Positions 4,394 through 31,799 of a stretch of DNA of 36,491 bases are shown piece after piece. Origin of the DNA: Chiloscyllium plagiosum (taxonomy: Eukaryota); contig NC_057718.1 in assembly GCF_004010195.1 (NCBI RefSeq), positions 72,305,236 to 72,341,726 of the forward strand. Direction: 5' to 3'. Position 1 is the first letter of the stretch; each line of letters starts with the position of its first letter. Made by a program: the position numbers and the translations under genes. A model generated the notes under the pieces. The model was not told where the DNA came from and did no database searches. It was given only the letters and a program-made list of their open reading frames with translations.

Positions 4394-4600
4394 AGGAGAA
4401 AGTGATGATTGCACATGCTGAAGATCAGAGTTGTGAGTATGGTGCTAGAAAAGCACAGCAGATGAGGCAGCATCCAAGGGATAGGAGAATCAACACTTTG
4501 GGCACAAGCCCTTCATCAGGAAGGGCTTATGCACGAAACATCGATTCTCCAGCTCCTTTGCTGCTGCCCAACCTGACGCGCTTTTCCAGCACCATACACT
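4394..4600. mobile_element. Palindromic Penelope-terminal-repeat mini-element (family A), apparently inside an old Deu-domain-type SINE relic (about 4305-4645)
   Basis: Inverted arms around cccttcatcaggaaggg, with the same sequence as the 18240-18458 and 29581-29793 copies. The flanks ctgacaatg...gtcagcctag and ttctgactcaagaggc resemble a SacSINE/DeuSINE-like element. Confidence 0.7.
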
Positions 4601-5467: not shown

Positions 5468-5885
5468 TGAATGGGTTCAGAAAAGATATACAACGATGTT
5501 GCCAGGATTGGAAGATTTGAGTTATAGGGAGAGGCTGAACAGGCCGGGGTTGTTTTCCCTGAAGTGTCAGAGGCTAAAGGATGACCTTATAGAGGTTTAT
5601 AAAATCGTGAGGGGCATGGATAGGATAAATAGACAAAGTCTTTTCCCTGGGGTGGGGAGAGGGGAAATATATAAAAGGGACCTAAGGGGCAACGTTTTCA
5701 TGCAGAGGGTGGTGTACGTATGGAATGAGTTGATTTAAAAGGCATCTGGATGGGTATACGAACAGGAAACGTTTAGAGGAATACGCGCCATGTGCTGGGA
5801 AATGGGACTAGATTAGGTTCAGATAACTAGTCGGCATGGAGGAGTTGGACAAAGGGTCTGTTACCGTGCTGTAAATCTCTATGAA
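5468..5885 (+). mobile_element. CR1 LINE 3' end
   Basis: Reads EWVQKRYTTMLPGLEDLSYRERLNRPGLFSL...DLIEVYKIVRGMDR, followed by the 3' UTR. Confidence 0.9.
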
Positions 5886-7215
5886 TTGAGAATGTGTTGA
5901 TGGAAAAAGCACAAGCAGGTCAGGCAGCATCCAAGGAGCAGGAAAATCGACATTTCGGGCTGAAGTCCTTCATCAGGAAAGAGACTGGGAGCCTTTGAGG
6001 TGGGGAGATAAATGGGAGGGGAGGGTTGGGGTGTGGGGCTGGGAGAAGGTAGCTGAAAGGGCAATGGTTGGATCGAGGTGGGGGTAAAGGTGATATGTCA
6101 GAGAGGAGGGTGGAGCGAATAGGTGGGAAGGAAGATTGACAGGTGGGACAGGTCATGAGGGCAGTGCTGAGCTGGAAGGTTGGAACTGGGGTAAGGTGGG
6201 GGGAGGGGTAATGAGGAAACTAATGAAGTCCACATTGATGCCTGTTTTAAAAAAATTCTCAAGGTCAAGGACCAGGCTCGCAGGAAAGTAGTCTGACACA
6301 GAACATTCTGGTCACATACAGATAAGAAGATTCACACGGGAAGGTGTGTAATAAGATTCACACGGGACTAAGCGACACCTTCCATTTTCGGTTAGATTCA
6401 CACATGTATTGGGACACAATTTTAACCCTTTCACCACAATGCCCTGGGGTTGAAGGATTCCGAGGCAGAAGAAAAGGCGTTCTTCCTCCAGGCGCTGGGT
6501 GGTGAGGGAGTGGCGATGGAGGAGTCCAGGACCTGCATGTCCTTGGCAGACTAGGAGGAGGAGTTGAAATGTTCGGCTGCGGGGTGGTGGGGTTGATTGG
6601 TGAGGATGTCCCAGAGATGTTCTCTAAAGCACTCTGACAGAAGACGTGCAGTCTCCCCAATGTAAAGGAGATTGCATCGGGAACAATGGATACAATAAAT
6701 GACATGTGTGGAGGTGCAAGTGAAACGTTGATGGATGTGGAAGGCTCCTTTGGGGCCTTGGACGGAGGTGGGGGGGGGTGTGGGCACAGGTTTTGCAATT
6801 CCTGTGGTGGCAGGGGGAAGGTGCCAGGAAGGGAGGGTGGCGTGGGCCTGACCAGGTAGTCATGGAGGGAACAGTCTTTGCTGAAAGCAGATAGAGGTGG
6901 GGAGGGAAATATATCCCTCATCATCCGCCAACATTTCCGCCACCTAAAAACGGACCCTACCATCATGAATATATTTCTTTCCCCATCCCTATCCGCAAAG
7001 ACCGTTCCCTCTGCGAATACCTGGTCAGATCTGCGTCCACTAACAAGCCACCCTCCCTTCCTGGCACCTTCCCCTGCTACCGCAGGAATTGCAAAACCTG
7101 CACTCACACCTCCCCCCTTACCTCCAAGGTCCCGAAGGAGGCTTCCACATCCAAAGTTTCACCTGCACTTCCACATGTCATTTATTGTATTCGTTGCTCC
7201 TGATGCGGTCTCCTC
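5886..7215 (-). mobile_element. Penelope-like element (family A): terminal repeat plus GIY-YIG endonuclease region, with an inverted segment
   Basis: ORF 6551-6787 (-) reads FTCTSTHVIYCIHCSRCNLLYIGETARLLSECFREH (GIY-YIG). Segment 6915-7215 repeats part of it on the + strand. The terminal repeat at about 5886-5980 has CTGATGA...GAAA on the - strand. Confidence 0.85.
6243..6438. mobile_element. Candidate solo LTR inserted in the Penelope copy
   Basis: Begins TG, ends CA, and is flanked by a 5-bp duplication atgcc (6238-6242 and 6439-6443). Removing it restores the Penelope sequence. Confidence 0.65.
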
Positions 7216-7419
7216 TGGCCTCTTAGGTCAAAATTGCTGGAAGTAGCCAAAAACATAAGCTCCAGAAATGCAGTTGTCACATTTGGATTCAATGTCACAA
7301 GAAGCTCAAATATCACGACTGCGCTGATTGACATCCCATCTTCAAATGTCAACTCCACACTCTGCCTCTCTCAGCATCCAATTGCAGAGCACAACTTTAA
7401 CCAATTCATCTTACACTGA

Positions 7420-11140: not shown

Positions 11141-11149
11141 CTTTTTCAA

Positions 11150-13994: not shown

Positions 13995-14088
13995 ATACAC
14001 AATACATACATTATTTATGTGTGTGTGTATAATATATGATACATATGTATTATATATGTATCATATATTATATACATACATAAAATAT
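13995..14088. repeat. AT-rich (TA/TG/CATA) low-complexity tract
   Basis: atacatacattatttatgtgtgtgtgtataatatatg... visible directly. Confidence 0.7.
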
Positions 14089-14183
14089 GAGCCCTGAAGA
14101 AGGGCCTATGCCTGAAACGTCGACTCTCCTGCTCCTCGGATGCTGCCTGCCCTGCTGTGTTTTTCCAGCACCACATTTTTCAA
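14089..14183 (+). ncRNA. Minimal type-I hammerhead ribozyme motif in a single-arm mini-element (family A)
   Basis: gagcc CTGAAGA a GGGC-ctat-GCCT GAAA c GTC gactc. Flanked by the duplication ataaaatat (14080-14088 and 14184-14192). Confidence 0.7.
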
Positions 14184-14934
14184 ATAAAATATAAACAGTC
14201 CACCAGCTAGGTCAAGGTATCTCTTTCATATTTAATGAACTACACTGTAAGTATTATTTCAAACTGCTTTGTGCGTTCTGTTTGTTACCAATGCAGTTAT
14301 AGCTGTGTTAATATTAAATGCATTCTTTGTGTCTGTTTATTAATTTATAAATGTTTAACTTTACCAGTGTGTCATTTACAAATCTGTCTATAAATGTTAT
14401 TGATTAATTCATTTGTGTATTCATCAGTTGCAATAGTCATATTTTGTTATATTGGTTTTATTGATTATTTTTGTGTAAGTCTTGCTTTTGAATACATTTG
14501 CTTGTTTCTTCCAGTTGTTTCCAATACATCTGGATGTGTGTTTACATGAACAATAAGTTGACCTTACAACATTAATCAGTAACAACCTTCACCTGGAAGT
14601 GTCAGTATGATACATGCCGCAGTATCGAGTGGATGGGAAATAGAGTGGAGTTGAAACCAAAATGAAAAACACTATTCTGAAGCCCCTACCTGAGTCACAG
14701 CCCTAGCATGGACATCCACATGGAGGTGACCAAATGTTCAGAGTATGTGGGTAGGGAGGCAGGATTGAATAGGAGTGGGGTGAGGCACAGTTTCCAGGGT
14801 GAGACGCAGGCAATAAAGCAGCTTCAGGCTCCATGATATGAGACTCAGCACGACTTCCTTCCACTTGTGTCTTGCTGGATCTGTGAAGGGTAGGCTAGCC
14901 CAGGTTGTGGAACAGAGTCACCTCGATGACACTT

Positions 14935-15134
14935 ATTCAGCGAGTCGTGAGTTCATGGAATTCCCTGCCAGTAGCAGTGGTGGACTCTCTCTCTTTATGG
15001 GCATTTAAGCGGGCATTGGATAGGCATATGGAGGATAGTGGGCTAGTGTAGGTTAGGTGGGCTTGGATCGGCGCAACATCGAGGGCCGAAGGGCCTGCAC
15101 TGCGCTGTATTCTTCTATGTTCTATGTTCTATGT
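14935..15134 (+). mobile_element. Young CR1 3' tail
   Basis: Near-identical to 30323-30521 and ends in (ttctatg)n. Confidence 0.9.
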
Positions 15135-15199
15135 AAATGTGAAGCCTGATGGATTGGTTCACCTTTGTAGGATTGATTTCAAACAAACGGTAAACCACT

Positions 15200-15555
15200 T
15201 TTTGCAGCTGGAAACTATTCAATCCGTTGCCTCGAGGACTTAAAGGCAAAACTGGCGTGGGGGAAATAACTTTAGGATTTCTCCCCACATTATGTGCTAC
15301 AGAGAATAAAAGAAAGATGATAGGGGAGGATTGTACTTGGCTTAAGGCATGCTGTAAAAAGGAGGGATTCAACGTTTGGACCAATAGCATCAGTTCTGAA
15401 GCAAGTATTCTGCAGAAAGATCTGTACTTAGATTTCCAGAAAGCATGTGATAAAGAGCCACGTCAATGGTTGTTGTGAAAAATAAAGAATCATGCTGTAG
15501 GGTATAAAATATTATGAATAAAAATATTGGTTAATAGGAAATAGATGATAGTTTT
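15200..15555 (+). mobile_element. Degenerate CR1 ORF1 (esterase-like) and RT scraps
   Basis: GFLPTLCA...TWLKACCKKEGF resembles CR1 ORF1. LYLDFQKACDK is an RT motif. Confidence 0.55.
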
Positions 15556-15764
15556 GTCTTTGCCAAACAAAAATAGAAATTGCTGGAAAAGCTCAGGTCA
15601 GGCAATAAATGATTAAATTCCATCCAAATAAGTTGAATTTGATTGGTCGGGTAATTATGTTCCAATACTCTGCCTGATTGTGAAAGCTTCTGAAAAAAAA
15701 TTAAGGTTTTTCCATAAATTAATTTTAATTAAAGCTTGAAATTTAACCCAGCCTTCACATTAAA

Positions 15765-15992
15765 ATAAAATAAAGAACTGTGGATACTGTTCTTTGGTCT
15801 ATACTGGAAATTTGAACCAAAAATAGAAATTACTGAAGAACCTCAGCGGATTTCACAGCATCTGTGGTGAAAAAGCAGAGTTAATGCGTCGACTCCAGTA
15901 ACTCTTACTCATAACTTCTTGAGAAATGTTAATTCTGCTTTCTCTCAACAGATGTTGAAGGGCTGCTCAGTTTCTCCTGCAATTTGTTTTTC
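15765..15992. mobile_element. Degenerate palindromic terminal-repeat element
   Basis: agaaattactgaagaacctcagc...cagcatctgtgg..aaagcagagttaa pairs imperfectly with ttaattctgctttctctcaacagatg...gctcagtttctcctgcaattt. Partial relatives lie at about 15567-15603 and 28945-29060. Confidence 0.55.
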
Positions 15993-16484
15993 TTCGAACT
16001 CTCACATTTCCAACAGCAAAGAAAATCTACTCTTCCTAGTATTAATAACACTTTGTATGAAACGTTCCTTACAAATTTTTCCCTTCACTCTGCTACGATG
16101 AATTCCAAAAACTAATAATCCTTGTTACTGATCATGTTGAAGTGACTATGCTGATACTACTGTATCTTTAAGCACTTTTTTAAACAAACAAATTCAGAAC
16201 TGCATTGACAATAGTTAATTCAATGACTCTGACACCATAATTATAAATAAAACAGAAACATATCAATCTGAGGGCTGCAGCAATCAAATATCCTGTCACC
16301 CATTAACCTAAAGCATGGCATTTTGTCACAAAGTTTGAAAATTATTTCTCCGTTCTTTAATCTCGGCTCAAACAATGAATAAAGTGATTACCTGAACAGT
16401 ACGATTATCTCAGTTGCAGCACCTAACAATTCAGAAGTATAAAATTTTACAAGCAAATGGAATTGGTGAACTTTCCATTGTGTG

Positions 16485-17140
16485 ATTTTGTCCTTGGACA
16501 AGCACATGGACGATGATGGGATTGTGTGGAGGGATGAGTTTAGATTAGTTCACAGGTCTGCGCAACATCCGAGGCCAAAGGGCCCCTTCTGCGCTGTACT
16601 GTTCTATGTTCTAATACAACTTGAAGAGGTAACACGCTGCACTCCAGATTTGTTAATGGGACAAGCCGCTACCCGGTGCAATAAATTTACATTGACTGTT
16701 ATTTTAATGAAAGATTACAACATTTTGATTTCATAATTTACCTTTTATAATTTTCTAAAACTGTCAGATTCTCTCTCAAACTCCTTTACTGCAAGGAGAA
16801 CAACCCTAACTTCTCCTCATTGTAGCAAAATTGCCTCATCCCTAGAACCATTTTGGTAAAACCCCTGTGCACAATCTATGACATTAACTTGTTCCCTAAT
16901 TAGCCAAACTAATTTCTCTCTTTGTGGTAAATACATGTATTAATGAAATACAAGCTCTTAAAATATTTGGTAAGATTTCTCTTAATTTGTTCTGCTACCT
17001 TCAAAAGGATATTCTATGACTCCCAAGTTCTAGGCACACAAGCCTTCAGATCTCTTTAAGTATATTTTTGGAACTGTGCCAATAAATCAATATATTGCCT
17101 CTCCTTGGGTCTTTTTTCAAAACTTATCATTTCATAGATC
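16485..17140. mobile_element. CR1 3' tail (+, about 16485-16613) and degenerate CR1 (-, about 16745-17140)
   Basis: ggacaagcacatgga...gcgcaacatc.gaggcc.aagggcc...gttctatgttcta tail. The downstream piece resembles reverse-strand CR1. Confidence 0.6.
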
Positions 17141-17149
17141 TAGACCAAC

Positions 17150-17712
17150 CACATATATCGGGTGGCTAGAAGAGTAGTCCAGACGTTAGAGATTTTGCAG
17201 CAAGCAATTTGCACCCTGATTCTTGAAAGCATTTCCGCCATACACATGGCACAAGTCCGAACTGTGATAGAAAATTTTGCACTTGCCTCAATGTATTAAG
17301 ATTCAGTATTAATCAAGAAACTCGTTTGCATACATAACAGCTTATTTCATCGACACCCCCTCCACGGCATTATATGTTCAGTCATTTCATCACTGATGCA
17401 CCATGGCAGTAGTATGTGCTGACTATAAGATGCACAATACGAACTTGTCAAGACAAAGTCACCTTATGAACCTGCAATCTGCCACCTGGAAAAAAACCTG
17501 CATGGAACCCCAACAGTCTACAAAGTATATTCCATCTTACTCTCAAATTCGGTGTCATTCCTTCATGATTGATCGATTAAATTCTTGAAGCCCTCTTCCT
17601 AACAGCATTGTGGGTGTATCTAAACTAGTGATTCACAGAGGTGCTCACTATCTTCTTAAGGATTACTTTTGATAGGTTGCTTGTCCTGTTAATGACACCC
17701 AGGTACTATGAA
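17150..17712 (+). mobile_element. Old L2/CR1-group LINE 3' portion
   Basis: Degenerate 'IH.AQVRTVIE..ALA' (compare YKAQVRSVMEY) followed by a typical 3' region. Confidence 0.5.
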
Positions 17713-17730
17713 TAGCTAAGTAAAATAAAG

Positions 17731-17969
17731 TTAAAAATCACACAACACCAGGTTATAGACATTGAACAAACACTGACCCATCTAACGAACTTGAGCTATA
17801 GCTTTCCCAATCAATATCAGTTTAATTGGAAGCACACTAGCTTTCGGAGTGACGGTGATTGTTGCTCCGAAAGCTAGTGTGCTTCCAATTAAACCTGTTG
17901 GACTATAACCTGGTGTTGTGTGATTTTTAACTTTGTACACCCCAGTCCAACACTGGCATCTCCAAAACA
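17731..17969. mobile_element. Palindromic Penelope-terminal-repeat mini-element (family B) with TSD
   Basis: 14-bp duplication taagtaaaataaag (17717-17730 and 17970-17983). Perfect 29-bp inverted repeat spanning 17821-17893. Confidence 0.85.
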
Positions 17970-18154
17970 TAAGTAAAATAAAGCATTGTTAACGACAAAA
18001 TTTGGAAAAAGAAAGTTAAGTAGTAGTACAAAATTGATTATTGCTGAAAAATAAAGATACAATATAACTGTTGTTTTTCATTTGGGTTAGTATTTCTTGT
18101 GAGTTGTCTCAATGATTGCAAGATTAAAAGCTTCAGTCAAATTTGTTCATTTTC

Positions 18155-19200
18155 AGAGTCACAGCAACGTTACAGCGCAGGAGGAGGCCATTTGGTTCAT
18201 CGTGCCTGCACCAGCTTGTTAAATGAGCATTATTGTGAGGAGAAAGTGAGGACTGCAGATGCTGGAGATCAGAGCTGAAAATGTGTTGCTGGAAAAGTGC
18301 AGCAGGTCATGCAGCATCCAAGGAACAGGAGAATCGACGTTTCGGGCATAAGCCCTTCTTTGGGAATTCCTGAAGGGCTTATGCCCGAAACGTCGATTCT
18401 CCTGTTCCTTGGATGCTGCCTGACCTGCTGCGCTTTTCCAGCAACACATTTTCAGCTCTGAGCATTATTGTGAGCCAATCTCCTGCTTTTTTCTTGAACA
18501 TAACTTTTTTCTCCACATAATAATCCAATGCTCTCTTGAATGCCTCAATTGAACCATATTCCACCACACTTCCAGGCAATGCATTCAGAGCCTAACTAGC
18601 TGAATGAAATAATGTTTTTCCACTTCACCCTTGCGTCTTTTGCAGATTTAAATCCATGCTTTCTTCTTCTTGTTCCATTTACAATCAGGAACACTTTTGG
18701 CCCATCTACTGTCGACCCTGCTGAATATTTTGAAATCCGATCTCTTCTGAGCTTTCTTCACTTCACAAAGAACAGTTCAAACTTCTTCAATCTATCCTTC
18801 TAACTGAAGTTCCTCATCCCTGGAACTAATCTTCTAAATTGCTTCTGCACGCTTCAATGAGTTTACATCCTTCCACATATAACGTGGTGCCAAGAACTGG
18901 ACACAATATCCCAGCTGTGGTCTCACAATTGTCCAATACAAGTTCAACATCATCTCCTTTTGTACTCTATACCATTTTAATAAAGCTAAGGATAGTGCAC
19001 ACCTCACTTATTGCTCTTTCTACTTGCCCTTACACATCCAATGATATGTGCACATACACCAGGTCCCTTTGCTCCTGTACCACTACGTTTTATTATTTTT
19101 CTTCTGACCAAAATGTATCTCATCACACCTGCCTATATTGAAACTCATTTGCTCTACCCACCAACTTGTTTGGATCCTTCTAGAGATCTATACTGTCCTG
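18155..19200 (-). mobile_element. Degenerate CR1 3' part, host of the 18240 insertion
   Basis: Reverse-strand CR1-like segments (ccattt...tccaccacact..caggca.tgcattc; agaactggacacaata). Confidence 0.65.
18240..18458. mobile_element. Palindromic Penelope-terminal-repeat mini-element (family A) with TSD
   Basis: 16-bp duplication tgagcattattgtgag (18224-18239 and 18459-18474). Near-perfect inverted arms of about 89 bp (18270-18358 and 18373-18460). Confidence 0.9.
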
Positions 19201-19452
19201 TCCTGTCTATTCACCTGAAGAATCCTCTGTCACGAGAGCTCCTCCTTTCTTCTCCCTTTCCTTCTAAGTGGCTGAGCCGATTGCAGCGCTGATTGCACAC
19301 TCTTGATGATCTAGCACCCTTATTAGTTTCCAAAATGAAAAACCGATTTGTGAGTCTGATGATTGGGGACTCTTGCAGCACCTGCCTCATTTATCCAATT
19401 CCCTTCCTTCCTCTGGGCTCTTAGGCTGGACTATGGCCACCGTTCTGAACAT

Positions 19453-19577
19453 TCCTGATGAAGGGCTCCAGCCTGAAACATTGATTTTCCTGCTCCTCTG
19501 ATGCTGCCTGACTTGCTGTACTTTTCCAGCAATACATTCTCAACTCTGATCTCCAGCATCTGCAGACCTCACTGTCT
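19453..19577 (+). mobile_element. Single-arm family A mini-element with hammerhead motif and TSD
   Basis: CTGATGA a GGGC-tcca-GCCT GAAA c att. Flanks ccac(c/t)gttctgaacat at 19437-19452 and 19578-19593. Confidence 0.8.
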
Positions 19578-19629
19578 CCACTGTTCTGAACATGCTATCC
19601 TTGTAAAGCTCAGCCTTGGGCATGTGCCG

Positions 19630-20386
19630 CTGATATACTGTAAATGGCAGAACCTTTAGGAAAAGAATAGACAGATAGATTGGGTGCAGGTCCACAGTTC
19701 CCTAGAAGTTGCAACACAGGTAGCCAAGGTGATTAAGGAGGCATTTCGCATTCTTGCTTTCATTGATAGGCCATGGAGTACAAGAGTTGGAAAACCATGT
19801 TTCAGCGATATAAAACCTTTGCTAGACCACATTTAGAGTATTGTGTGCAGTTTTGGAGATCATATTATCAGAAGGGTGTCAAAGCTTTGGAGAGAGTGCA
19901 GAGAAGGTTCATGAGGATGTTGCCTGGTCTTGAGGGCATTGGCTGTGAGGAAAAGTTAAAAAGACTAGGATTGTTTTCACTGGAAAGATGGCAGCCGAGA
20001 GAAGATATAACAGTGGTCTACAAAATTATGAGAGGCAGAGATGGATAGCCAGAGGCTTTCTCCCAGGGTTAAGTTTCAATTACAAGGGGGTAGAGGTTCA
20101 TGGTAGAGGGGGAAACTTTAAAGGAAAAGTACTAGGGAAGCTTTTTATGCAAGAGAGTGGGTAAGAGTCTGGAACACACTGCCCAAAGAGATAGTAGAAG
20201 CAGGCATGTTGGTGAGATTTAAGTAACATCTGGATGGTAATATGTATGCGGAGGGAATAGATAGATGCAGACCGAATAAGGGCAGAAGGCTTGTTTTTTT
20301 TTCAGTTTCATTAGGGCATGATGATTGGTACAGGCTTGGAGGACCAAAGAGGCTGTTCTTGTGCTGTACTCCTCTTTTGTTCTTTG
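19630..20386 (+). mobile_element. CR1 LINE 3' fragment
   Basis: EYKSW...RPHLEYCVQFW...LERVQRRFMRMLPGLEG. Confidence 0.9.
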
Positions 20387-21758
20387 ACTTCAGTTGTTGT
20401 TCAAGCTCTGAAACCGGGACATCAGGTTTCTACAGCAGGAAGCTATTCCTGCTCACAAGATCAATTAGGAGCCCAGTAGAATGCTTGACTTCTCACTTTT
20501 ACAAGCCACACATTCCACTTGACTAACTTGTGCTGCCATGTTCCCTTGCACTTCCTTCAGTTCCCTTGTGCCATCTTTATTCTACTTCCCTTATTCTACT
20601 TTGCTTACTTGTATTACTTTATTATGTCACATTCACTTATCCCTGTGTTTTATTATCAATTCCAAAAAACAGACATTTTTAATCACAAAAAATCAACCCA
20701 TCACTTCCCCATGATTTTACTGTTTGATTTTTTTCCCTCTGAATCAACATTCCTCCAAAATTGCAGCTGTTAAACTGTGCCTCCTTTCTTGCTGCTGTAC
20801 TGAATGTTAGCATTAAGCATTCCTAAGTCAGATACAGCCTGAGAAAATTAGTGTGAAACGTCTATTGTACTTATGGAGTTTTTCAGTATTCTTCAGAAAA
20901 GATTCTAGAATATGTTACATTCAAATCAGGTTCACATGGGTTCACCCTTTAGGGTTTAACTAAATTTGGGGAATAAAACATTATGCAGTTAATCAAGATG
21001 TGCAAAATCAATTGGAAGTCCCTTATGAGCTGAGTAGATAGAAAAGGTTGATTTTTCATTCCAGTCCATTGAGATGAAGCAATTCATTGGAGCTCAGCAG
21101 AGGGCAGCTGAGACTTGTCTGATGAGACTTCACTTGTTGGTCAGGAATGAATATGGGGAGGCTAACAAAGTTGAGTTCTTAAAGGACCAGCTCATTCTTA
21201 CCCAGGGGAATGTTCAGAAAACAATAAACAAATCTTGCCATGCTGAAAAGTCACCAAAAAGAGTAATCAGATTTAACAACGCTGAAGATGCAGGCCTTGG
21301 AGTGGGCTAGAAGTTAAGATATAGTTGATCAATTTTTATACCTAAAGGCTGAGCAGAAAGAAAATTTTAAAAGTTAGCTTTCTGCCAACAGTCAAGCTGT
21401 TGTAGCAGAGTTAGGTTGTTCTCCGTCAGAGGGAACCTACGATCTGTGCGAAAGAAAGCACCTTGCCTTTGCTTCACCAGTATTTATTGGTTCTGTCTAT
21501 TGGAATACCGAAGAAGTGCACGTAAGGACGTATGGATAAAGACGTATTGAATGACATGAAGCTGCGTCATTGCAACTCTGAATCTACACCTTTGTTTATC
21601 CTGATCTTTGGCAAAACTAAACAACTCCATATGCCAGAACTAAAGGGTTGAGCACTAAATTGGACAGAGTAGCAATGATGGATCTGATTTTTTTTAAAAC
21701 AATGCCATATTTTTAATTTGGCTTTTGGGAAAAAAAGTATTGGTATAAAATTTACTAT

Positions 21759-22080
21759 GAGCAGCACGGTGGCACAGTGGTTAGCACTGCTACCTCACAG
21801 CGCCAGAGACCCGGGTTCAATTCCCGCCTCAGGCGACTGACTGTGTGGAGTTTACACATTCTCCCAGTGTCTGCGTGGGTTTCCTCTGGGTGGTCTGGTT
21901 TTCTCCCACAGTCCAAAAATGTGCAGGTTAGGTGAACTGACCATGTTAAATTGCCCATAGTGCTAGGTGCAAGGGTAAATGTAGTGAAATGGGTCTGGTT
22001 GGGTGTGCTTCGGCGGGTCGGTGTGGACTTGTTGGGCCGAAGGGCCTGTTTCCACACTGTAAGTAATCTAATCTAATCTA
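21759..22080 (+). mobile_element. HE1-type V-SINE, full length
   Basis: A box tggcacagtgg, B box ggttcaattcc, V-domain, (taatc)n tail. Confidence 0.92.
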
Positions 22081-22639
22081 TTCCTTGGATCAGTTTTATT
22101 CAAGATTCATACCCACTAGGAATTAGATATGAACTTTCTAAGCTTGTTTTATATACGCTGCTCTTATAATTGGCCAACAAGTTTTCATTCTATGAGGCTG
22201 GCACAAAGCGTGTATAAATAAAAGATGATAAGAGGACATAAAATTTCAGATTCACCACATTATATTTTACATTCTATCTTCTTCTTCTCTTTCAAATTTA
22301 ATTTATCCGATTACCTGACATATAAAATGCTCTGGTTTAGCAAATCTAAATCATTCCAAGAAAAAAAGATACTACATTGGGTAGTCAAAATAGTTCAAGT
22401 TTGTGCCAGGAAAGATGGGATAAATTTTATTTTGTTAAAGGAACCTTCAATGCAAGCTGTTGAATTGCGTCCTTTGTATATTGCAAACCTCTATGGTTTT
22501 TTTTACATTCAGAATTTGTCATTTCTTTGCTGAAGCTTAAATACTAACTCTGAAAGTGTATGGAAGATAGTAATTAAGGACAAAGGTTACAATGATAAAA
22601 TATATCAATTAGGTTTGAACATCTAGTTCTTATTTTTAC

Positions 22640-22771
22640 CATGCCAGTGATACTTCTTCGCCAGTTCCTGAACAGCCTGCACACGTACTGCTTTACATGT
22701 AGATTGTGTCCGTTTTAGAAGAAGCCACAAATCAGAATCATGGCTTTCCACATCCTGTCTTAAGTAATGCT
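22640..22771 (-). CDS. SERAC1: SERAC1 internal coding exon (132 nt, phase 1-1; probably equivalent to human exon 6)
   Basis: Minus strand reads ttttgtttttatag|AG CAT TAC...TGG CAT G|gtaaaa. It translates as HYLRQDVESHDSDLWLLLKRTQSTCKAVRVQAVQELAKKYHWH, which resembles the SERAC1 segment 'WLLL.K..S.....R..AV.E....HHWH' as I recall it. It joins in frame to the 9710-9828 exon (CAT G|AT TAT = H D Y). Confidence 0.93.
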
Positions 22772-23160
22772 CTATAAAAACAAAAAAAAATGTCAGATAA
22801 AGAGTTTTAAAGAGCTTACATATTTTGAAATGTAATCTGTGACTCATTAATGTTTCCTATTTTAAGAAAATAAACAATTGTTGAAGCAAGACAATTTGTA
22901 CTACAAAAGCAATAGTGAGTGAGTCAACTCATCCTATATAAGTGCCAGATTGGAATGCAACCCAAAGACATCAATTAATTTCAGAATTCCGCCCAAGAAG
23001 CAAGGAAATACTTAAAGTCTATGACAATAAAATCAAAATCACTGTATTCAAGGAGGAGAAGAATGATGACAGAGAACAAAACATTCTATTCCAATAAAAA
23101 TCAAATAAACTGCACGTTATGATCTCATTATACTGAAAACATTATTCACCCAAGTGAACT

Positions 23161-23276
23161 GGCCTCTTGTGGTGCAGTGATAGTTTCTCTATTGCTGAGA
23201 CAGATTACAAGAATTCGAATCCCACCTGCTTCAAAAGGAATGTCACCACATCTCTGAGCAGATAGATTAAAAAATA
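23161..23276 (+). mobile_element. Short degenerate tRNA-derived SINE
   Basis: tggtgcagtg A-box-like and attcgaatccc B-box-like, related to about 3622-3726. Confidence 0.5.
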
Positions 23277-23803
23277 ACCCAGACTTAAACCAGGCTTGAT
23301 AAGTTTAATTTTCTTTTATTTACTGCAGAAATCAGCATCTCAACATATTTACACGAGACTACTTTTAACAACAAAGCAAAGCACCTTCTTACAAGAAACG
23401 AAGAAAAAAAATAAACTATAACACCCTATGCAGAAACTACAGGAATTTTCTCATTACAAATATCAGAAAATAAATTCCTTTCACCCAGCAATAAGCTTAC
23501 AGATGCTCAAACTTCAGTGAAGAGTCACCCTATCTACACATTAAAGCTTCCTACTTGGCTGGCACAACTGTAATCAGTTTCCTTTTGTCAAATTTCTGCC
23601 ATGAATTACTTGTTATTAGTTTTTTTTTTAATTTAACGTGTCTCCCAGGAACCCTTAAAAATAAACGACTAACACCGCTCTCAGAATATTCAACATGGGT
23701 TCATTTAACTTATGTCATTAAAAAGCAGACACATAGAAAACATCTAAAAATGTATCGATCATTGACTTGAATATACTCAGTGACTCAGTTTCCATAACCT
23801 TCT

Positions 23804-24149
23804 TAGAATCATAGAATCCCTACAGTGTGGAAACAGGCCCTTCGGCCCCAACAAGTCCATACCAACTCTCCGAAGAGTAGCCCACCCAGACCCATTCCCC
23901 TACCCTACATTTATCCCTGACGAATGCACTCAAGCTACATATCCCCGAACTGGACAATTTAGCAAGGCCAATTCATCTAACCTGCATGTCTTTGGATTGT
24001 GGGAGGAAACCAAAGCACCTCGAGAAAACTCATGCAGACACAGGGAGAATGTAAAAGATCCACACATACAGTCCACTGAGGCTGGAATCAAACTTGGGTC
24101 CCTGGTGATGTGAGGTAGCAGTGCTAACCACTGAGCTATTGTGCTGCCC
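23804..24149 (-). mobile_element. HE1-type V-SINE (older copy)
   Basis: Reverse complement of the HE1 head, V-domain and tail. Confidence 0.9.
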
Positions 24150-25660
24150 AATGTGGTAGTGGAATGAAAAGGTTCATCACCCAACAAGTGAAGGAATAAT
24201 TCCTCATCTCAGCCCCAAATGGCCCAGCCGATTATAGAGAAATTGGGACCCCGTGGGAAACATCCTCCCTGCATCTAGTCTGTCCAACTCTATTAGAACT
24301 TTACACATTTCAATCAGATCCCGCTCTCATTATTCTGGTGTATAGAGGCCCAGTTGAACCAACTTCTCTTCATAGGTCTGCCCAGCCATCCTGAACATCA
24401 GGCTAGTGAGTCTTTGCTACTCTGACTCTGTAGCAAGAATATCTTCCCTTAGGTAGAAAGGCCATAACTGGATATCATATTCCAAGTGTGGGTCTTACCA
24501 ATATTCTGAACAATTGCAGTAAGGCATCCCCTACTTCTGAACTCAAATCCTCTTGCAATGAAGTCTAACATACCATTTGCTTTCCTAATCCTAAACACCT
24601 GCCTGTTTATTTTCATTGACTGGTGTACAAGGACACCTAGATCCATTTGAAAATCTGTATTTCCCGATGTATCACCATATAAATAATACTGTGCCTTCCA
24701 GTTTTCCACATGTATCCACCTGATACTACAACTACCATGTGTTTGCCCACCCACTCTTGGACAAGATTGCCCTGAAGCCTCTTTACATCCTCCTCAAAAT
24801 TCTCAATCTCACCTATTTTTGTGTCATCAGCTAACTTGGAAATATTGCATTTGATTCCCTGATGCTGTGGTTCTGTTCGCCGAGCTGGAAGTTTTTGTTG
24901 CAAACGTTTCGTCCCCTGTCTGGTGACATCCTCAGTGCTTGGGAGCCTCCTGTGAAGCGCTTCTGTGGTGTTTCCTCCGGCATTTATAGTGGCCTGTCCC
25001 TGCCGCTTCCGGTTGTCAGTTCCAGCTGTCCGCTGTAGTGGCCAGTATATTGGGTCCAGGTCGATGTGTTTGTTGATGGAGTTTGTGGATGAGTGCCATG
25101 CTTCTAGGAATTCCCTGGCTGTTCTTTGTTTCGCTTGCCCTATAATGGTAGTGCTGTCCCAGTCAAATTCATGTTGCTTGTCGTCTACGTGTGTGGCTAC
25201 TAGGGATAGCTGGTCGTGTCGTTCCGTGGCTAGTTGATGTTCCCTGATCCTAATCATTTTTGTATATTGTGAATAGCGAGGGCTAAGCACCGATCCTTGC
25301 GGTACACCACTGTTCACCACCTCCAATCCAGAAAAAGACCTGTTTATTCCAATACTCTGGCTCAAAGACCAGAAACAATCTCAATCCATGCCAATATATT
25401 ACCTCCAATGCCCTGTGCTTCAATTTTGTCCACTGGCCTCTTAAGTATATCAAAAGCTTTCTTGAAATCTAAATACACCACAAACACTGGTTCTTATTTA
25501 TCTATTCCAATAGTTATATCCTTGAAAATCTCTAGAAGATTATTTTATCACGAGTTCCCTTTCATAGATCTGTGCTGACTTGGTCTAATATTATTAATGC
25601 TTTCAAAACGTTATCACATTTTTTACTAGCATTTTCCACATTATGCGAGGCAAACTGCGC
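24150..25660 (-). mobile_element. CR1 LINE fragment interrupted by a Penelope insertion
   Basis: SGVPQGSVL...[insertion]...QGIKCNISKLADDTKIG...KANGMLDFIARGFEFRS. Confidence 0.85.
24864..25239 (-). mobile_element. Penelope-like element (family C) 3' fragment: GIY-YIG C-terminal part plus hammerhead terminal repeat
   Basis: EHQLAT.RHDQLSLVATH...HEFDWD...AREFLEAWHS..SINKHIDL. Hammerhead motif at about 24900-24938. 9-bp duplication ttccctgat at 24855-24863 and 25240-25248. Confidence 0.85.
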
Positions 25661-25683
25661 TGTAATTCACTTTTGCCATGAAT

Positions 25684-26662
25684 TGGAGGTGCCAGTGTTG
25701 GACTGGGGTGGACAAAGTTAAAAATCATACAACACCAGGTTATAGTCCAACAGGTTTATTTGGAAGCACTAGCTTTCAGAGTGCCACTCCTTCATCAGGT
25801 GGTTGTGGGGAATAACATCATGCCAAAGGAGTTCAATGCCATGGAGATGTGATACAGTAAACAATCTTAGATTAAAACTTTCATCTTTTATAAATTGGAT
25901 ATGCTGGTTTCTGTTCATTGATATGTAAATCCCAGAGTTTCTTTTAAATTACATTCTCAAGATAGCTCAAGTTTTTAAACAATAGGGGTGATGTCTGTTT
26001 GTGTCCCAATGCTATGTCAGACTAACAAATCCTCTGTATAGTTTTACAGAGTTTTACATGCAGTAAAACTCATGCAGATTCATGCAGTTTTTGAGTAAAG
26101 CAAAATGTAATTCTGCAATAACAAATTCACCCTATAAGTTTATATGTGTGCGTATGTAGGAGCTACAGATTGAGTGTGTGTGTGTGTGTGAGAGAGTGTG
26201 TGATGGGGTATGTGTCCTTGTGTATGAGGGGTGTGTGTGTGTGTGTGTATATATATCGTGCAGTGGGGTCACTTGTAGTGTGACATGAACCCAAGGTCCC
26301 GGTTGAGGCCACTCCCATGGGTACAGAACTTGGCTATCAGCCTTTGCTTGGCCGTTTTGTGCTATTGTTTGTCCCAAAGTCCGCGTTGGAGGCTAGTCAC
26401 CTGAAGATGAGGCCGAATGTCCCGGACTGCTGAAGTGTTCCCCGACTGGGAGGGAACACTCTTACCTGGTGATTGTTATGCGGTGTCCATTCATCTGTTG
26501 TAGCGTCTGCTCGTTCTCGCCAATGTATCATGCCTCAGGGCATCCTTGCCTGCAGCGTATGAGATAGACCACTTTGGCCGAGTCACAGGAGTACTCGCCG
26601 TGTACATGGTGGGAGGTGTCCCCACATGTAATGGTGTTATCCGTGTCGATACTCTGACACTA
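25684..26662 (-). mobile_element. Penelope-like element (family B): GIY-YIG region, (CA)n tract, terminal repeat with hammerhead
   Basis: Minus frame reads YSCDSAKVVYLIRCRQGCPEA*YIGE...MNGHR...LPVGEHF. Microsatellite at about 26145-26257. CTGATGA...GAAAGCTA at about 25764-25804. Confidence 0.85.
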
Positions 26663-26789
26663 TAGAATACTGGCTGCATCGTAAGTGCTGAACTGAATGA
26701 GAAATGAATACAACACTGCACTGTGGAGAGGGCCACTTGGCAAAAAAGGCAGTCTTATGTAGACCTTCCAGTGGAGATTGTCATGAATC

Positions 26790-28635
26790 AGTTACTATGT
26801 CTCCATAGTATCATCTCAGGACTAGTACTGACAGAGGCCCTTCCACTCATCATGTCTGTGCCAATCAAAACAACCATCTACTTATTGTCATCCTATTTTC
26901 CAGCCTTCAATGCGTTGGAAAGCAAATGCACATCTAAATACTTCAAGTGTTATGAGGGTTTCTGCCTCTACTATCCTTCAGCTCCAGATTCCCATAGCCC
27001 TCTCGGTGAAAACATTTTTCCTCACTTCACATCTAAACCTCTATCCCTTACAATGAAATCTATGCCTCTTTGTCAGTGCTGTCTCCATGAAGGGGTGAAG
27101 TATCTTCCTGTCTTTTCTATCTATGCCCCTTAATTTTATATGTAGAATCATAGAATCCCCACAGTGTGGAAACAGGACATTTAGCCCAACAAGTCCACAA
27201 TGACCCTCCGAAGAGTAACCCATCCAGACCCATTCCCCTACCCTTTTACCCTATGTTTACCCCTAACCAATGCACCTAACTTACATATCCTTGAACACTA
27301 TGAGCAATTTAGCATGGCCACTTCACCTAACCGGTATCTCAATCATATCCTCTCTCAACCTACTCTGCTCTAGGGAAAACAACTTCAGTCTGTGCAAGCT
27401 CTCTTCATTTCTGAAACCCTCCTTCCCAAGCAATGATCTGATAAATCTCCTCTACACCCTCTCCAGTGCTATAACACCCTTTGTATAATGTGCTTCCAGA
27501 ATTGTGTACAATTAGCTGCAGCATAAACCAACATTTTACACAGTTGTATTCATTTCTCATGGCAGTGGTTCTAGCATAACTTCTCTGCCCTTAAACTCTG
27601 TTCCTCAAACAAAGAAAGCAAGCACACTATATCTCTTCTCAAACACTTTATCCACCTGTTCGGATACCTAAAGGGACTCATACATATGCACACTGAAACG
27701 CTTCTGATCCTTGGTGTTTCCCAGGTATGATCATGTACTACCTTGCCTGGTTTGTCCTGTCCAAGTGCATTACTTTATGTTTATCCAGATTAAGTTCCAC
27801 TTGCCATTGACCAGTCCATCTGACCAGCCCATCTATAATCTCTTGTAATCTAAGGCCATCCTCCTTCACAATTTAGCACTCCACTAATTTTTGTATTGTC
27901 TACGAACTTACTGATCAATGACCTCCTTGTACACAGACTTCCAGTCAGAAAAACACCAGACACCCTCAACCATCAACCTCTGCATCCTGTTACCCAGCCA
28001 ACTGTTGATCCAATGAGTCATTTCCTCAGATCCCATCAGCTGTTCTTTCTTTGGCTATCAGCCTCCTATGTAGGACCTTATCAAAAGTCTTGCTAAGACA
28101 TCAAAAGCATTGCCCTCATCTGCACACCTGGTCACCTTTTCAAAAAATTAAATCAAGTTGGTCAAACAAAGCAATGCAGACAGCTCTTGAATAATCCCTG
28201 CCTTTCTAAATGCAAATTAATTCTGTCCCGCAGAATTTCTTCCAAATATTCCCACTAGAGTTTAAACTGATTTGCTTGTAATTTCCTCTTTTATTCTTTG
28301 CTCCCTTCTTGAGTAATGCTATCACCGCTGTCCTTCAGTCCTCTCGAGGCCAGAAAAGAATTGAAAATTTTTAAAGTGCATCCGTTAAATCCTCCCTTCC
28401 TTCATTCAACAACCCAGGAGACATTTCATTTAGCCCTTAAGATGGATTTATTTTTAAACCTGTCAGACCACTCATTCATGCATAAATTTATGCAAATTTA
28501 TTTAACTGTCATGTAGATCTTCTCCCTGAATTTTATACCCATTTCACCCCTTTTACTAGTGAACTCTAACCCAAAGTATTTAATCAGATTCCTACCAATA
28601 TCTTCCGGCACTATGCACAAATTACCACTGTGGTC
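26790..28635 (-). mobile_element. Degenerate CR1 with partial HE1 SINE (about 27143-27331, -)
   Basis: Reverse-strand CR1 3' and RT segments. HE1 tail tagaatcatagaatcccc.cagtgtggaaacagg. Confidence 0.7.
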
Positions 28636-29179
28636 CTGTTCATTCACGTGTACTCCAGTTGACCTTTCTCAAGGTTAACATCCTCCAATGTAGTATGCTG
28701 TGCCCCATGAACCTCAAGTTTCAGTCGTCTCTGGCGACCCATTTTGTGCAGAACACAACAGACTATATCAACATTAGGAACCCTCACTTAGGGATAACAA
28801 GAAAACTTTGGTCAAGACACCTGAATTGCATTTTTGTGAGGTCAATGGCCTACTGGTTGTCCTTCTTGTAGATGGCAGTGGTTCTAGTTCACTTGACCTT
28901 AAGTTGTGGTGTTTTCTCTAGGGACATTTGCTGGTACTAAAATAAAATAAAGATGTCATAGATCTGAAATAAACACTAATTGCTGGCAAAACTTAACAGA
29001 TCTGATAGCATCTGTGTGAAGGAAGCAGAGTTAACACTGCAAGCTCCACGGTTGTTCATCACAACTCACCAATGACATGAGCTACAACTGCAACAGATTC
29101 AGAATGAATGGATCACTGTCAGAAAACGTAATGTTTGCCTGAAGGAACCATGAAGGATGAATGCATATACGCTGGATAT

Positions 29180-29440
29180 AAAGACCATAAGAAATAGGAA
29201 CAGGAGTAGGCCATTTGGATGATGGATGATCCGGTATTTCTCACATCCACTTTCCTGCTTTGATTTCCCTCCTAAGAATCTATCTCAACCATAAACATAG
29301 TTGAGGACTCTGCCTCACAGCTCTCAGTGGCAATGAGTTCCAAAGACACTCAACCTTCACTGAAAGAATTGCTCCTCATCTCAGTCTTTAACTTTCATAC
29401 TGAGGCTATGGCCTCTAGTCCTAGACTCTCCTAGGAGGGG
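29180..29440 (-). mobile_element. CR1 3' tail
   Basis: aagaccataagaaataggaacaggagtaggccatt..., same type as about 2225-2530. Confidence 0.7.
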
Positions 29441-29580
29441 AAAAAAAAAGAGTTGTTGTGGTGGGTAATTTTAACTTGCCTTAGATTGACTGAGAGTCAG
29501 TACTTGCTAGTGGCATGGATGGGGCAGGATTTGTAAGCATCATTCAAGAGGGTTTCTTGACCTGGTTTTGGGAAATGAGC

Positions 29581-29793
29581 TTAAAAATGTGTAACTGGAA
29601 AAACACAGCAGGTCAGGCAGCATCAAAGGAGAAGGAGAATCGACGTTTTGGGCATAAGCCCTTCTTCCTGAAGAACAGCTTATGCCCGAAACGTCGATTC
29701 TCCTTCTCCTTTGATGCTGCCTGACCTGCTGCGCTTTTCCTGCAACACATTTTTAAGCTCTGATCCCCAGCATCTGCAGTCCTCACTTTCTCC
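29581..29793. mobile_element. Palindromic family A mini-element with TSD
   Basis: 14-bp duplication tttgggaaatgagc (29567-29580 and 29794-29807). Inverted arms with CTGAAGA...GAAACGTC. Confidence 0.88.
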
Positions 29794-30053
29794 TTTGGGA
29801 AATGAGCCCAGGCAGGTGAGTGAAGTTTCAGTGGGGGAACATTTTCAGAGTAGTGACCATAATACCATGAGTTTTAAGATACTCATGGATAGGGATAACA
29901 GCAGTTCTCAGGTGACGGTATTAAATTGGGGGAAGGTGAAGCACAACAACATTCAGCAGAATTGGAGAATTTTGATTGGACGTAGTGTTTGAGGGTAAAT
30001 TTACATTGAACATGTGGGAATATTTCAAATGGCAGTTGATAAGAGTTAAGGAG

Positions 30054-30521: not shown

Positions 30522-30596
30522 AGGAGCAGCACATTTCTGAGAGAATGAAGGATACATAGGGCAATTTATATGAACCTTGGATGACCAAGGCATGAT

Positions 30597-30900
30597 GGGC
30601 GGCACGGTGGCACAGTGGTTAGCACTGCTGCCTCACAGCGCCAGAGACCCGGGTTCAATTCCCGCCTCAGGCGACTGACTGTGTGGAGTTTGCACGTTCT
30701 CCCCGTGTCTGCGTGGGTTTCCTCCGGGTGCTCCGGTTTCCTCTCTCAGTCCAAAGATGTGCATGTCAGGTGAATTGGCCATGCTAAATTGCCCGTAGTG
30801 TTAGGCAAGGGGTAAATGTAGGGGTATGGGTGGTTATGCTTTGGCGGGTCGGTGTGGACTTGTTGGGCCGAAGGGCCTGTTTCCACTCTAATCTAATCTA
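30597..30900 (+). mobile_element. HE1-type V-SINE, young
   Basis: gggcggcacggtggcacagtgg..., CpGs retained, (taatc)n tail. Confidence 0.93.
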
Positions 30901-31487
30901 AAAAAATGACCAGGGATGTTATGACATTGGTCAAAAAGAAAAAGAAAACATACGTAAGGTCGATGAGGATATGAACTGACGAACACCTTGAAATATATAA
31001 GACAGTAGAAAAGAACTTAAACAAGGAATTCGAAGGGCTAAAAAGATCATGAAAAGTCATCAGCAAGCAGGATTTAGGAGAATCCCAAGGCTTTTTATGC
31101 ATATATAAAAAGCAAGAAGGTAGCCAGGGAAAGGGCTGACCTACTCAATGACAAAGGAGGGAATCTGTGTGTGTGGCCAGAAGAGGAAGGTGAGGTCCTA
31201 AATGAATACCATGTGTTGGTATTCACCAAAGAGAAGGAACTGGGAGAATGATCTCAGGGAAGAGAATGTCGAATTTCTAAGCTAAGTTGCTATTAAAAAG
31301 TAACAGGTATTATCCATCTTAAAAAGTATTAAAGGTAGATAAGTTCACAGGTCCTGATGAGATCTATCGCAGAATATTGAGGGAGGCAAGAAAATAAATT
31401 ACTGCAACATTGACAGATATCTCTGGGATCTTGCTGGCCAGCAGAGGTTCCAGAGAACTGGTGAATAGCCAACATTGTCCTATTGTT

Positions 31488-31799
31488 TAGATTAGATTAC
31501 ATTACAGTGTGCAAACAGGCCCTTCGGCCCAACAAGTCCGCACCGACCCGCCGAAGCGCAACCCACCCATACCCCTGCATTTACCCCTTACCTAACACTA
31601 CGGACAATTTAGCATGGCCAATTCACCTGACCTGCACATCTTTGGACTGTGGGAGGAAACCGGAGCACCCGGAGGAAACCCACGCAGACACGGGGAGAAT
31701 GTGCAAACTCCACACAGTCAGTCGTCTGAGGCGGGAATTGAACCCGGGTCTCAGGCACTGTGAGGCAGCAGTGCTAACCACTGTGCCACCGTGCCGCCC
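31488..31799 (-). mobile_element. HE1-type V-SINE, young
   Basis: Reverse complement of the 30597-30900 copy with few differences. Confidence 0.93.

What the first reader, a model, noticed from the sequence alone, without database searches (positions are those of the whole stretch)
14089..29793. Hammerhead-bearing mini-elements that insert on their own with 9-16 bp TSDs (family A)
Seen: four short copies of one sequence, each bounded by a distinct target duplication. These are 14089-14183 (ataaaatat), 18240-18458 (tgagcattattgtgag), 19453-19577 (ccacYgttctgaacat) and 29581-29793 (tttgggaaatgagc), plus a fifth copy at 4394-4600 without a clear TSD. The same sequence is the terminal repeat of the GIY-YIG Penelope copy at 5886-7215. 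It contains CTGANGA-(A)-GGGC-loop-GCCY-GAAA-C-GTC. Established: Penelope-like terminal repeats carry minimal type-I hammerhead ribozymes with a tiny palindromic stem III that cleave efficiently mainly as dimers. Inference: these are either a non-autonomous, retrozyme- or SINE-like ribozyme family mobilised in trans, or extremely truncated Penelope insertions. Five copies in 36 kb would imply a very high copy number if this density holds genome-wide.
Basis: partly seen in the sequence, partly recalled or inferred. Interest (0 to 1): 0.75.

Follow-up and report, generated by a model that had tools for sequence, protein, structure and literature searches.

The report
Fixed-length Penelope end-module insertions, often palindromic
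These 95-220-base repeats are real insertions of only the ribozyme-bearing end piece of a Penelope-like jumping gene, three of five as mirror-image pairs; their fixed ends suggest they are likely copied from the start of that element's RNA, a variant of a known kind of element.

Summary
In detail: four TSDs of 9, 16, 16 and 14 bp (0 of 400 null placements each), and the unit is the 3' terminus of a broken Neptune-type Penelope copy. Three of five copies are head-to-head palindromes, and only 1 of 9 arms keeps an intact hammerhead. The ends are fixed. The 3' ends fall at about +93 or +128, the known 30-40-nt Penelope 'tail'. The 5' ends fall at -1 to +2, not at the ribozyme cut (+31). Public reads show the same cliff in two species, and unit depth exceeds body depth roughly tenfold. 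Ragged truncation and retrozyme readings fail. Most likely (0.55), the Penelope protein primes internally on the 5' leader of its own RNA and copies to the RNA start; priming at both target nicks would give the palindromes. A self-propagating SINE-like family is the main rival (0.2). Solo and inverted pLTRs with minimal hammerheads are published; I did not find the fixed 5' end or its excess in print. The scan has noted this family in other windows of this genome.

The parts
4394..4522 (-). Long arm (unit +1 to +129, with tail) of an old palindromic copy; hammerhead GAAA box decayed; no TSD found
4523..4600 (+). Inverted short arm (unit about +12 to +87); junction is a 3-nt TTC/GAA overlap; arms differ at 22 of about 80 sites
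5884..5979 (-). Unit (+1 to +94, short end) as 3' terminus of the Penelope-like copy
5980..6918 (-). Penelope body: linker C-x4-C-x2-C, GIY-YIG endonuclease (frameshifts, stops) and pyrimidine-rich 3' UTR; interrupted by a ~200-nt younger repeat at about 6238-6439
6919..7217 (+). Inverted 5' piece of the same Penelope copy (linker and start of endonuclease), head to head with the direct piece
14080..14088 (+). TSD, left copy (9 bp; right copy 14184-14192)
14089..14183 (+). Solo short copy (unit -1 to +92); the only arm with intact core, helix II and palindromic loop 3; predicted cut after 14121
18224..18239 (+). TSD, left copy (16 bp; right copy 18459-18474)
18240..18366 (-). Long arm (unit +1 to +127) of the youngest palindrome; 2-nt microhomology with the TSD at its 3' end
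18367..18458 (+). Inverted short arm (unit +1 to +95, 3-nt deletion in the core); centre GGAATTCC; 3-nt microhomology with the TSD; arms differ at 2 of about 80 sites
19437..19452 (+). TSD, left copy (16 bp, one mismatch; right copy 19578-19593)
19453..19577 (+). Solo long copy (unit +2 to +126, with tail); loop-3 palindrome decayed
29567..29580 (+). TSD, left copy (14 bp; right copy 29794-29807)
29581..29664 (-). Inverted short arm (unit +9 to +92); 4-nt microhomology with the TSD; TTC overlap at the centre
29665..29793 (+). Long arm (unit +1 to +128, with tail); helix II broken

Best explanation
The repeats are TSD-flanked insertions of just the ~93- or ~129-nt hammerhead-headed end module (pLTR with or without tail) of a Neptune-type Penelope-like element, likely made when the element's RT-endonuclease primes internally on the 5' leader of its own uncleaved RNA and copies to the RNA's predicted start. 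Shown: identity with the Penelope 3' terminus, two 3' end classes about 36 nt apart, one 5' end class that is not the ribozyme cut, a sharp boundary and roughly tenfold excess in reads of two species, and head-to-head pairs with a tail on one arm only. Inferred step 1: position about +1 is the transcription start, so the module is also the 5' end of the full-length RNA. Inferred step 2: +93 and +129 are the two RT start sites, as shown in vitro for anole Poseidon. Every RNA would offer them near its 5' end, whereas a second, 3' pair exists only on read-through RNAs from tandem copies, which would explain the excess of stubs. Inferred step 3: priming from one target nick gives a solo copy. Priming from both nicks (one at each start site) and joining of the two cDNA ends by 2-3-nt microhomology gives the palindrome; fold-back of one cDNA gives the same junction and is not excluded. 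Inferred step 4: most stubs are dead ends, because in the anole element the protein needs RNA beyond the initiation sites, which the stubs would lack. The ribozyme is a passenger here and does not set the ends.
For: Ends in unit coordinates: the complete arm of each of the 5 mini-loci starts at -1 to +2. 4 of 9 arms end at +126 to +129 and 5 of 9 at +87 to +95. None starts at +31. The chance of five 5' ends in one 6-nt window is about 5e-6 even if truncation were confined to 130 nt (window chosen after the fact). Reads laid on 5862-6660: raw RNA-read depth is 772 at 5966, 210 at 5980 and 21 at 5984, against about 60-90 over the body. Loose ends behind 5979 number 651 contigs (organism A) and 590 (organism B), with flank agreement of only 0.32, so the flanks are unrelated and not a shared upstream body or exon. 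Contig depth at 5916-5942 is 8.3 and 9.3 million against 0.4-0.95 million over 6105-6239. Majority letters at 5980 and 5984 restore TCATTCC at the boundary, an initiator-like motif (consensus recalled). Outer ends of the two TSD-bearing palindromes overlap the TSD by 3 and 4 nt at the short end and 2 and 1 nt at the long end, as expected if each target 3'-OH primed there. A palindrome of an unrelated Penelope family at 17731-17969 repeats the pattern: 14-bp TSD, one-sided tail, 4-nt overlap. The three centres differ from each other, and arm-to-arm divergence is 2, 8 and 22 of about 80 sites, so they formed separately and at different times. The solo 19453 shares a minority loop variant with the body-bearing 5886 copy. 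Literature: two internal RT start sites bounding the tail, both strands nicked and extended, unprocessed RNA the main substrate, RNA needed to +172 (PMC11167929); internal TATA-less promoter in Drosophila Penelope (PMC2377424).
Against: No transcription start was measured. The polyA single-cell run showed no pile-up of read ends anywhere (table 6). The initiator-like motif occurs 12 times per kb by chance. The 5' ends spread over about 5979-5983 rather than one base. In D. virilis the hammerhead lies after an intron well downstream of the start, so a start at the hammerhead is not a general rule. I could not show that the unit begins a full-length element: no protein matched its translation, and the one long shark relative lacks the N-terminus. 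Depth ratios are not copy numbers: palindromes count twice, and mismatches in the 5886 reference clip alignments at 5960 and 5997-6077. Only the best-supported loose-end rows were shown (1688 hidden), so the share of copies that run on upstream is unmeasured here. The anole data concern a Poseidon, not a Neptune element. End microhomology also fits ordinary end joining.
Confidence: 0.55

Rival explanations
1. A discrete SINE-like non-autonomous family. Solo modules keep an internal promoter and the RT start sites, are transcribed on their own, and are re-inserted in trans by the Penelope protein.
For: Fixed ends and a roughly tenfold depth excess over the body. Penelope promoters can be internal. 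pLTR sequences sufficed for mobilisation in trans in Adineta, and non-autonomous Chlamys families exist. The unit is abundant in an RNA run.
Against: The unit contains nothing that is not in the Penelope terminus. The palindrome centres differ, so a single palindromic master is unlikely. A minority variant is shared between a solo and a body-bearing copy (two copies only). In the anole element the protein needs RNA beyond the initiation sites. The RNA reads may be host read-through.
Confidence: 0.2
2. Extreme 5' truncation of normal 3'-primed insertions with a strong stop. RT starts in the 3' pLTR of a long RNA and terminates, or the intermediate is cut by the endonuclease, at the ATT just before the hammerhead.
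For: The same sequence is the 3' end of the body-bearing copy. PLE insertions are strongly 5'-truncated, and solo minimal hammerheads were read as truncated PLEs. The anole endonuclease prefers 5'-ATT-3', and ATT lies at the boundary.
Against: A structural RT stop would be expected at the 3' strand of helix I (about +36), which RT meets first, not at +1 (inference). Helix I is only 2-3 bp. Depth shows a cliff within about 5 nt rather than a gradient.
Confidence: 0.15
3. Solo pLTRs left by recombination between the two direct pLTRs of full-length insertions. The structure inverted pLTR + pLTR + ORF + pLTR-tail would collapse to exactly the palindrome, with its TSD.
For: That full-length layout, with a 9-bp TSD and 31-bp tail, is published for Adineta Pen2a, where recombination or deletion is offered for solo pLTRs.
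Against: It needs most insertions to be full length, against the usual heavy truncation, and efficient recombination between repeats of only 93-129 bp about 3 kb apart. One palindrome is young (2 differences in about 80 sites).
Confidence: 0.07
4. Non-LTR retrozyme. Ribozyme-cut monomers circularise, are reverse transcribed and insert.
For: A type-I hammerhead motif, TSDs longer than 4 bp, and the proposed PLE origin of animal retrozymes.
Against: No head-to-tail repeat among the window copies. The unit is 93-129 nt, against 150-450 for retrozymes. Helix I is not the canonical 6 bp. 0 of 9 arms begins at the cut site. Only 1 of 9 arms is intact. Head-to-head copies fold into a ~90-bp hairpin that buries the ribozyme.
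Confidence: 0.03

Closest known systems
Insertion architecture of endonuclease-positive Penelope-like elements: pLTR, optional 30-40-bp tail, adjacent inverted copy, solo pLTRs (PMC3846280; PMC8557442)
   Same: Head-to-head inverted pLTR, tail on one arm only, TSDs of variable length, solo pLTRs.
   Different: Here the ORF is absent from most insertions, the 5' end is fixed to within about 5 nt, and the module appears to outnumber the body roughly tenfold.
Minimal type-I hammerheads (min-HHR) of metazoan PLEs (PMC4209133)
   Same: CUGANGA core, extra base between 9 and 10.1, G10.1-C11.1 pair, palindromic 15.2-16.2; mostly single motifs; pairs on opposite strands 100-700 bp apart already reported.
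   Different: Helix II is 4 bp and helix I 2-3 bp here, against 7-8 and 4-5 bp in the schistosome motifs. That paper did not map the boundaries of the solo copies in the parts I read.
Anolis Poseidon (PAc) internal initiation of reverse transcription (PMC11167929)
   Same: Two 3' ends 30-40 nt apart, roughly 90-130 nt downstream of the hammerhead; no ends at the ribozyme cut.
   Different: A different clade (Neptune-type here). The main text does not discuss solo or palindromic products. Its Fig. S2 could not be seen.
Animal non-LTR retrozymes (PMC7229834; bioRxiv 10.64898/2026.07.22.740005)
   Same: Non-coding, hammerhead-bearing, PLE-related, dispersed monomers.
   Different: Retrozymes are head-to-tail repeats of 150-450 bp with canonical hammerheads that yield circular RNA. 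These copies are solo or head to head and shorter.

Membership tests
Penelope-like element, Neptune-type (parent copy) | RT plus C-terminal GIY-YIG endonuclease ORF | tested here: met
   Window piece 71% identical to a shark protein with RT and endonuclease sequence; 71 long relatives, most with Pfam RT. The window copy is truncated and broken; its own Pfam hit is below cutoff.
Penelope-like element, Neptune-type (parent copy) | [quoted passage not shown] | tested here: met
   C-x4-C-x2-C in both pieces and a similar motif in 65 of 71 relatives. No RT tree was built, so Nematis is not formally excluded.
Penelope-like element insertion unit | 30-40-nt tail at one end only | tested here: met
   3' ends at +87-95 (5 of 9 arms) and +126-129 (4 of 9); one long and one short arm in 3 of 3 palindromes
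Penelope-like element insertion unit | Inverted copy head to head at the 5' end; TSD of variable length | tested here: met
   3 of 5 mini-copies and the parent copy are inverted; TSDs of 9, 14, 16, 16 bp
Ordinary 5'-truncated PLE copies | Ragged 5' ends | tested here: not met
   5 of 5 loci start at -1 to +2; tenfold depth drop between 5980 and 5984 in raw reads. The share that runs on upstream was not measured.
Minimal type-I hammerhead | CUGANGA / GAAA / NUH core, extra base after A9, palindromic loop 3 | tested here: met
   Complete in 1 of 9 arms, core pattern in 4 of 9
Minimal type-I hammerhead | Covarying helices I and II | tested here: inconclusive
   7 arms: 85.7% of cells paired, 0 compensatory pairs, 2 G-C to G-U changes; too few and too similar sequences
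Minimal type-I hammerhead | Self-cleavage as a dimer or with protein help | not testable with these tools
   No read-end pile-up at the predicted cut in one polyA run, about 2% of it read; not an assay
Non-LTR retrozyme | Head-to-tail tandem repeats of 150-450 bp with at least two hammerheads | tested here: not met
   Window only: solo or head-to-head copies, unit 93-129 nt
Non-LTR retrozyme | Circular RNA from ribozyme-cut monomers | not testable with these tools
   Only a polyA library and contigs were laid
SINE-like non-autonomous family | Own head or promoter distinct from the partner's 3' end | tested here: not met
   The first 94 nt align end to end with the Penelope terminus; the rest is the tail
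SINE-like non-autonomous family | Independent replication, seen as solo-only subfamilies | tested here: inconclusive
   Nine arms only; no genome held
MITE / DNA transposon | Symmetric terminal inverted repeats and a fixed TSD length | tested here: not met
   Arms differ by about 36 nt; TSDs of 14 and 16 bp on the two palindromes that have one

The most novel reading that the evidence does not exclude
The stubs are a mass natural record of the unsolved Penelope insertion reaction. The protein primes at both target nicks, at the two internal start sites of the RNA's 5' leader, and joins the two cDNAs head to head. This one reaction would explain the one-sided tail and the inverted pLTR of Penelope-like elements, and why ORF-less stubs outnumber real copies about tenfold in these genomes.
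Probability: 0.35. Interest if true: 0.65.

Novelty: new variant of a known kind. Interest (0 to 1): 0.4.

Why it matters
How Penelope-like elements make inverted pLTRs and a one-sided tail is stated as open in PMC8557442 and PMC11167929. A family whose insertions consist of only these parts, in very many copies, makes the question testable by counting junctions. It also shows that the hammerhead does not define these insertion ends, which bears on the proposed circular-RNA model. The unit covers 955 of 36,491 bases here (2.6%). Palindromic copies would form ~90-bp double-stranded RNA when read through. For annotation, such copies are easily mislabelled as MITEs, SINEs or microRNA hairpins.

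Tried and rejected
No whole genome is held, so the genome-wide end table was replaced by one read lay. Rfam gave no hammerhead; the mir-680 hits (36 bits against a cutoff of 104) are hairpin artefacts. Exact-motif scans found nothing in viral contigs or metagenome contigs. The run search listed no RNA holder on record; this is no evidence on expression. The lay showed no read-end pile-ups, and none of the 15 joints displayed was a strand change (174 more hidden), so the palindrome share is unmeasured. The structure-pair count found no compensatory changes. Folding the 14089 hammerhead alone or as a pair did not give the hammerhead fold as minimum-energy structure; this is uninformative for such short helices. 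A protein search with the unit's translation found nothing, and it did not match any of the fetched relatives. A wider TSD search for 4394 and 5884-7217 was empty. The sequence look-up of earlier findings was empty. Lunse et al. (PMC5785218) is not held. A word search of the three text supplements of PMC11167929 gave no hits. PMC5753468 lists a Penelope-derived human repeat but says nothing on palindromes in the passages seen. Rejected: MITE (asymmetric arms, variable TSD); a spliced leader upstream of +1 (flank agreement only 0.32); a cleaved RNA as template (no arm starts at +31).
Full report
Observation. The four TSDs are exact or nearly so (9, 16, 16 with one mismatch, 14 bp). For each, 0 of 400 controls with the right boundary moved 40-1000 bp reached the observed length. 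The copy at 4394 and the Penelope copy have no TSD. The host is probably a shark: the endonuclease piece matches a Chiloscyllium punctatum protein at 71%.

Anatomy. There is one unit of about 129 nt, numbered here from the TTCC just before the hammerhead core. It occurs as nine arms at six loci. Arms end at +126 to +129 (4 of 9) or +87 to +95 (5 of 9), and each palindrome has one of each. The ~36-nt difference matches the 30-40-nt PLE tail (PMC8557442, passages; PMC3846280, passages and Discussion). In the anole Poseidon element that tail lies between two internal RT start sites (PMC11167929, parts 1-2 of 4). The complete arm of each of the five mini-loci starts at -1 to +2; the two trimmed inverted arms start at +9 and +12. 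None starts at the predicted cut, +31.

Parent. The copy at 5884-7217 reads on the minus strand: linker with C-x4-C-x2-C, a broken GIY-YIG domain, a pyrimidine-rich 3' UTR, then the unit to its short end. An inverted piece of linker and endonuclease sits head to head at its 5' side. Long relatives, many around 890 aa, mostly carry Pfam RT, and 65 of 71 have the linker motif. That fits Neptune; I built no tree.

Ribozyme. The motif fits the minimal type-I hammerheads of metazoan PLEs, including the extra base after A9 and the palindromic loop 3 (PMC4209133, parts 1-2 of 4). It is mostly decayed: 4 of 9 arms pass the core pattern, and only 14089 also has helix II and the palindrome. Seven aligned arms show 85.7% pairing and no compensatory change. 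Rfam found no hammerhead. In a palindrome the two arms fold into one long hairpin (-175.5 kcal/mol, z -26), which would bury the ribozyme. Dimer-dependent cleavage is taken; Lunse et al. could not be read.

Fixed or ragged. I laid four runs on 5862-6660, which holds the unit and the body upstream of it. In raw RNA reads (about 2% of the run) depth is 772 at 5966, 210 at 5980 and 21 at 5984, with about 60-90 over the body. Contigs that stop matching right after 5979 number 651 in organism A and 590 in organism B, and their onward letters agree at only 0.32. Summed contig depth over 5916-5942 is 8.3 and 9.3 million against 0.4-0.95 million over 6105-6239. So the boundary is a cliff, it is shared by two species, and the unit exceeds the body by about an order of magnitude. 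Limits: contig depth is not copy number; palindromes count twice; the reference's own mismatches clip reads at 5960 and depress 5997-6077; 1688 loose-end rows and 174 joints were not shown; and the tail was not part of the laid stretch.

Mechanism. A template cut by the ribozyme would give 5' ends at +31, and a structural stop would be expected near +36; neither is seen. A real RNA end at about +1 explains the data. Majority letters restore TCATTCC at the boundary, an initiator-like motif (consensus recalled), but such motifs occur 12 times per kb, so this is weak. Drosophila Penelope has an internal promoter (PMC2377424, passages), though its hammerhead lies further downstream. If the unit is the 5' leader, every RNA offers the two RT start sites close to its 5' end, and priming there yields a 93- or 129-nt cDNA. 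For palindromes, the TSD overlaps the element's continuation by 3 and 4 nt at the short ends and 2 and 1 nt at the long ends. This is what priming from both nicks predicts; the anole protein nicks and extends both strands, and twin priming in L1 is recalled, not read. The centres are a TTC/GAA overlap in two registers (4394, 29581) and GGAATTCC (18240). They fit annealing of two cDNA ends or fold-back of one equally well. Arm divergence of 2, 8 and 22 in about 80 sites shows separate events of different ages. An unrelated family's palindrome at 17731-17969 has the same one-sided tail and a 4-nt overlap, though its centre lies in helix II. I could not confirm that the unit begins a full-length element.

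Rivals. A self-propagating SINE-like family (0.2) fits fixed ends and excess. But the unit has no sequence of its own, and the solo 19453 shares with the body-bearing 5886 copy a loop variant absent from about 97% of reads covering that site (two copies, and the share is underestimated by clipping). A strong stop or endonuclease cut at ATT during normal 3' priming (0.15) remains open. Recombination between pLTRs (0.07) would give the same palindrome from an Adineta-type layout but needs mostly full-length insertions. The retrozyme reading (0.03) fails on tandem repeats, unit length and cut-site ends (PMC7229834, passages; bioRxiv 10.64898/2026.07.22.740005, parts 1-3 of 5).

Novelty. Solo and opposite-strand minimal hammerheads, solo pLTRs, inverted pLTRs and tails are all in print (also PMC8969392, passages). 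I did not find the fixed 5' boundary, the excess or the two-nick explanation in searches; 'solo pLTR' occurs in one held paper. Repbase and subscription papers were not searchable, and Fig. S2 of PMC11167929 could not be seen, so absence from print is not established. Eight earlier notes of this scan on the same genome concern this family or its machinery, and most reach a similar reading. I wrote my reading before seeing them, and they are not independent evidence. Verdict: real, a variant of known PLE insertion products, interest 0.4.

Noticed in passing
window:17717-17983: Palindromic mini-element of a second hammerhead-bearing family: 14-bp TSD (17717-17730 and 17970-17983), tail on one arm, 4-nt microhomology at the short end, about 60 extra nt inside the left arm, centre within helix II.
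   Followed up: partly
window:7417-7660 and 25678-25895 (minus strand): Two more copies of that second family with recognisable hammerhead cores (7541, 25798). They share weakly similar upstream sequence (72% over 54 nt), so they extend beyond the ribozyme.
   Followed up: partly
window:24860-25250 (minus strand): Fragment of a third Penelope-like element (endonuclease C-terminus-like ORF, judged by eye) with its own hammerhead-like motif at 24935; no Pfam hit.
   Followed up: no
window:6238-6439: A ~200-nt repeat inserted in the endonuclease gene. It is abundant in organism A DNA and RNA runs and has zero depth in organism B, and reads that skip it exist. No clear TSD or terminal inverted repeat; unclassified.
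   Followed up: partly
window:14013-14084: AT-rich near-perfect hairpin directly left of the 14089 copy's TSD; possibly the target that attracted the insertion.
   Followed up: no
window:14089-14126: This copy starts GAGCC and has GACTC after the cut site, a better helix I than the other arms; it may be a separate subfamily.
   Followed up: no
window:10006-10293, 21757-22066, 23823-24150, 30595-30904, 31504-31800, 33790-34124: Several copies of a SINE-like repeat on both strands, and many CR1-like LINE fragments (RT hits at 11141 and 12710); family labels are recalled, not tested.
   Followed up: no
window:338-1546: ORFs resembling the 3' part and an internal part of another non-LTR element; no Pfam hit.
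   Followed up: no
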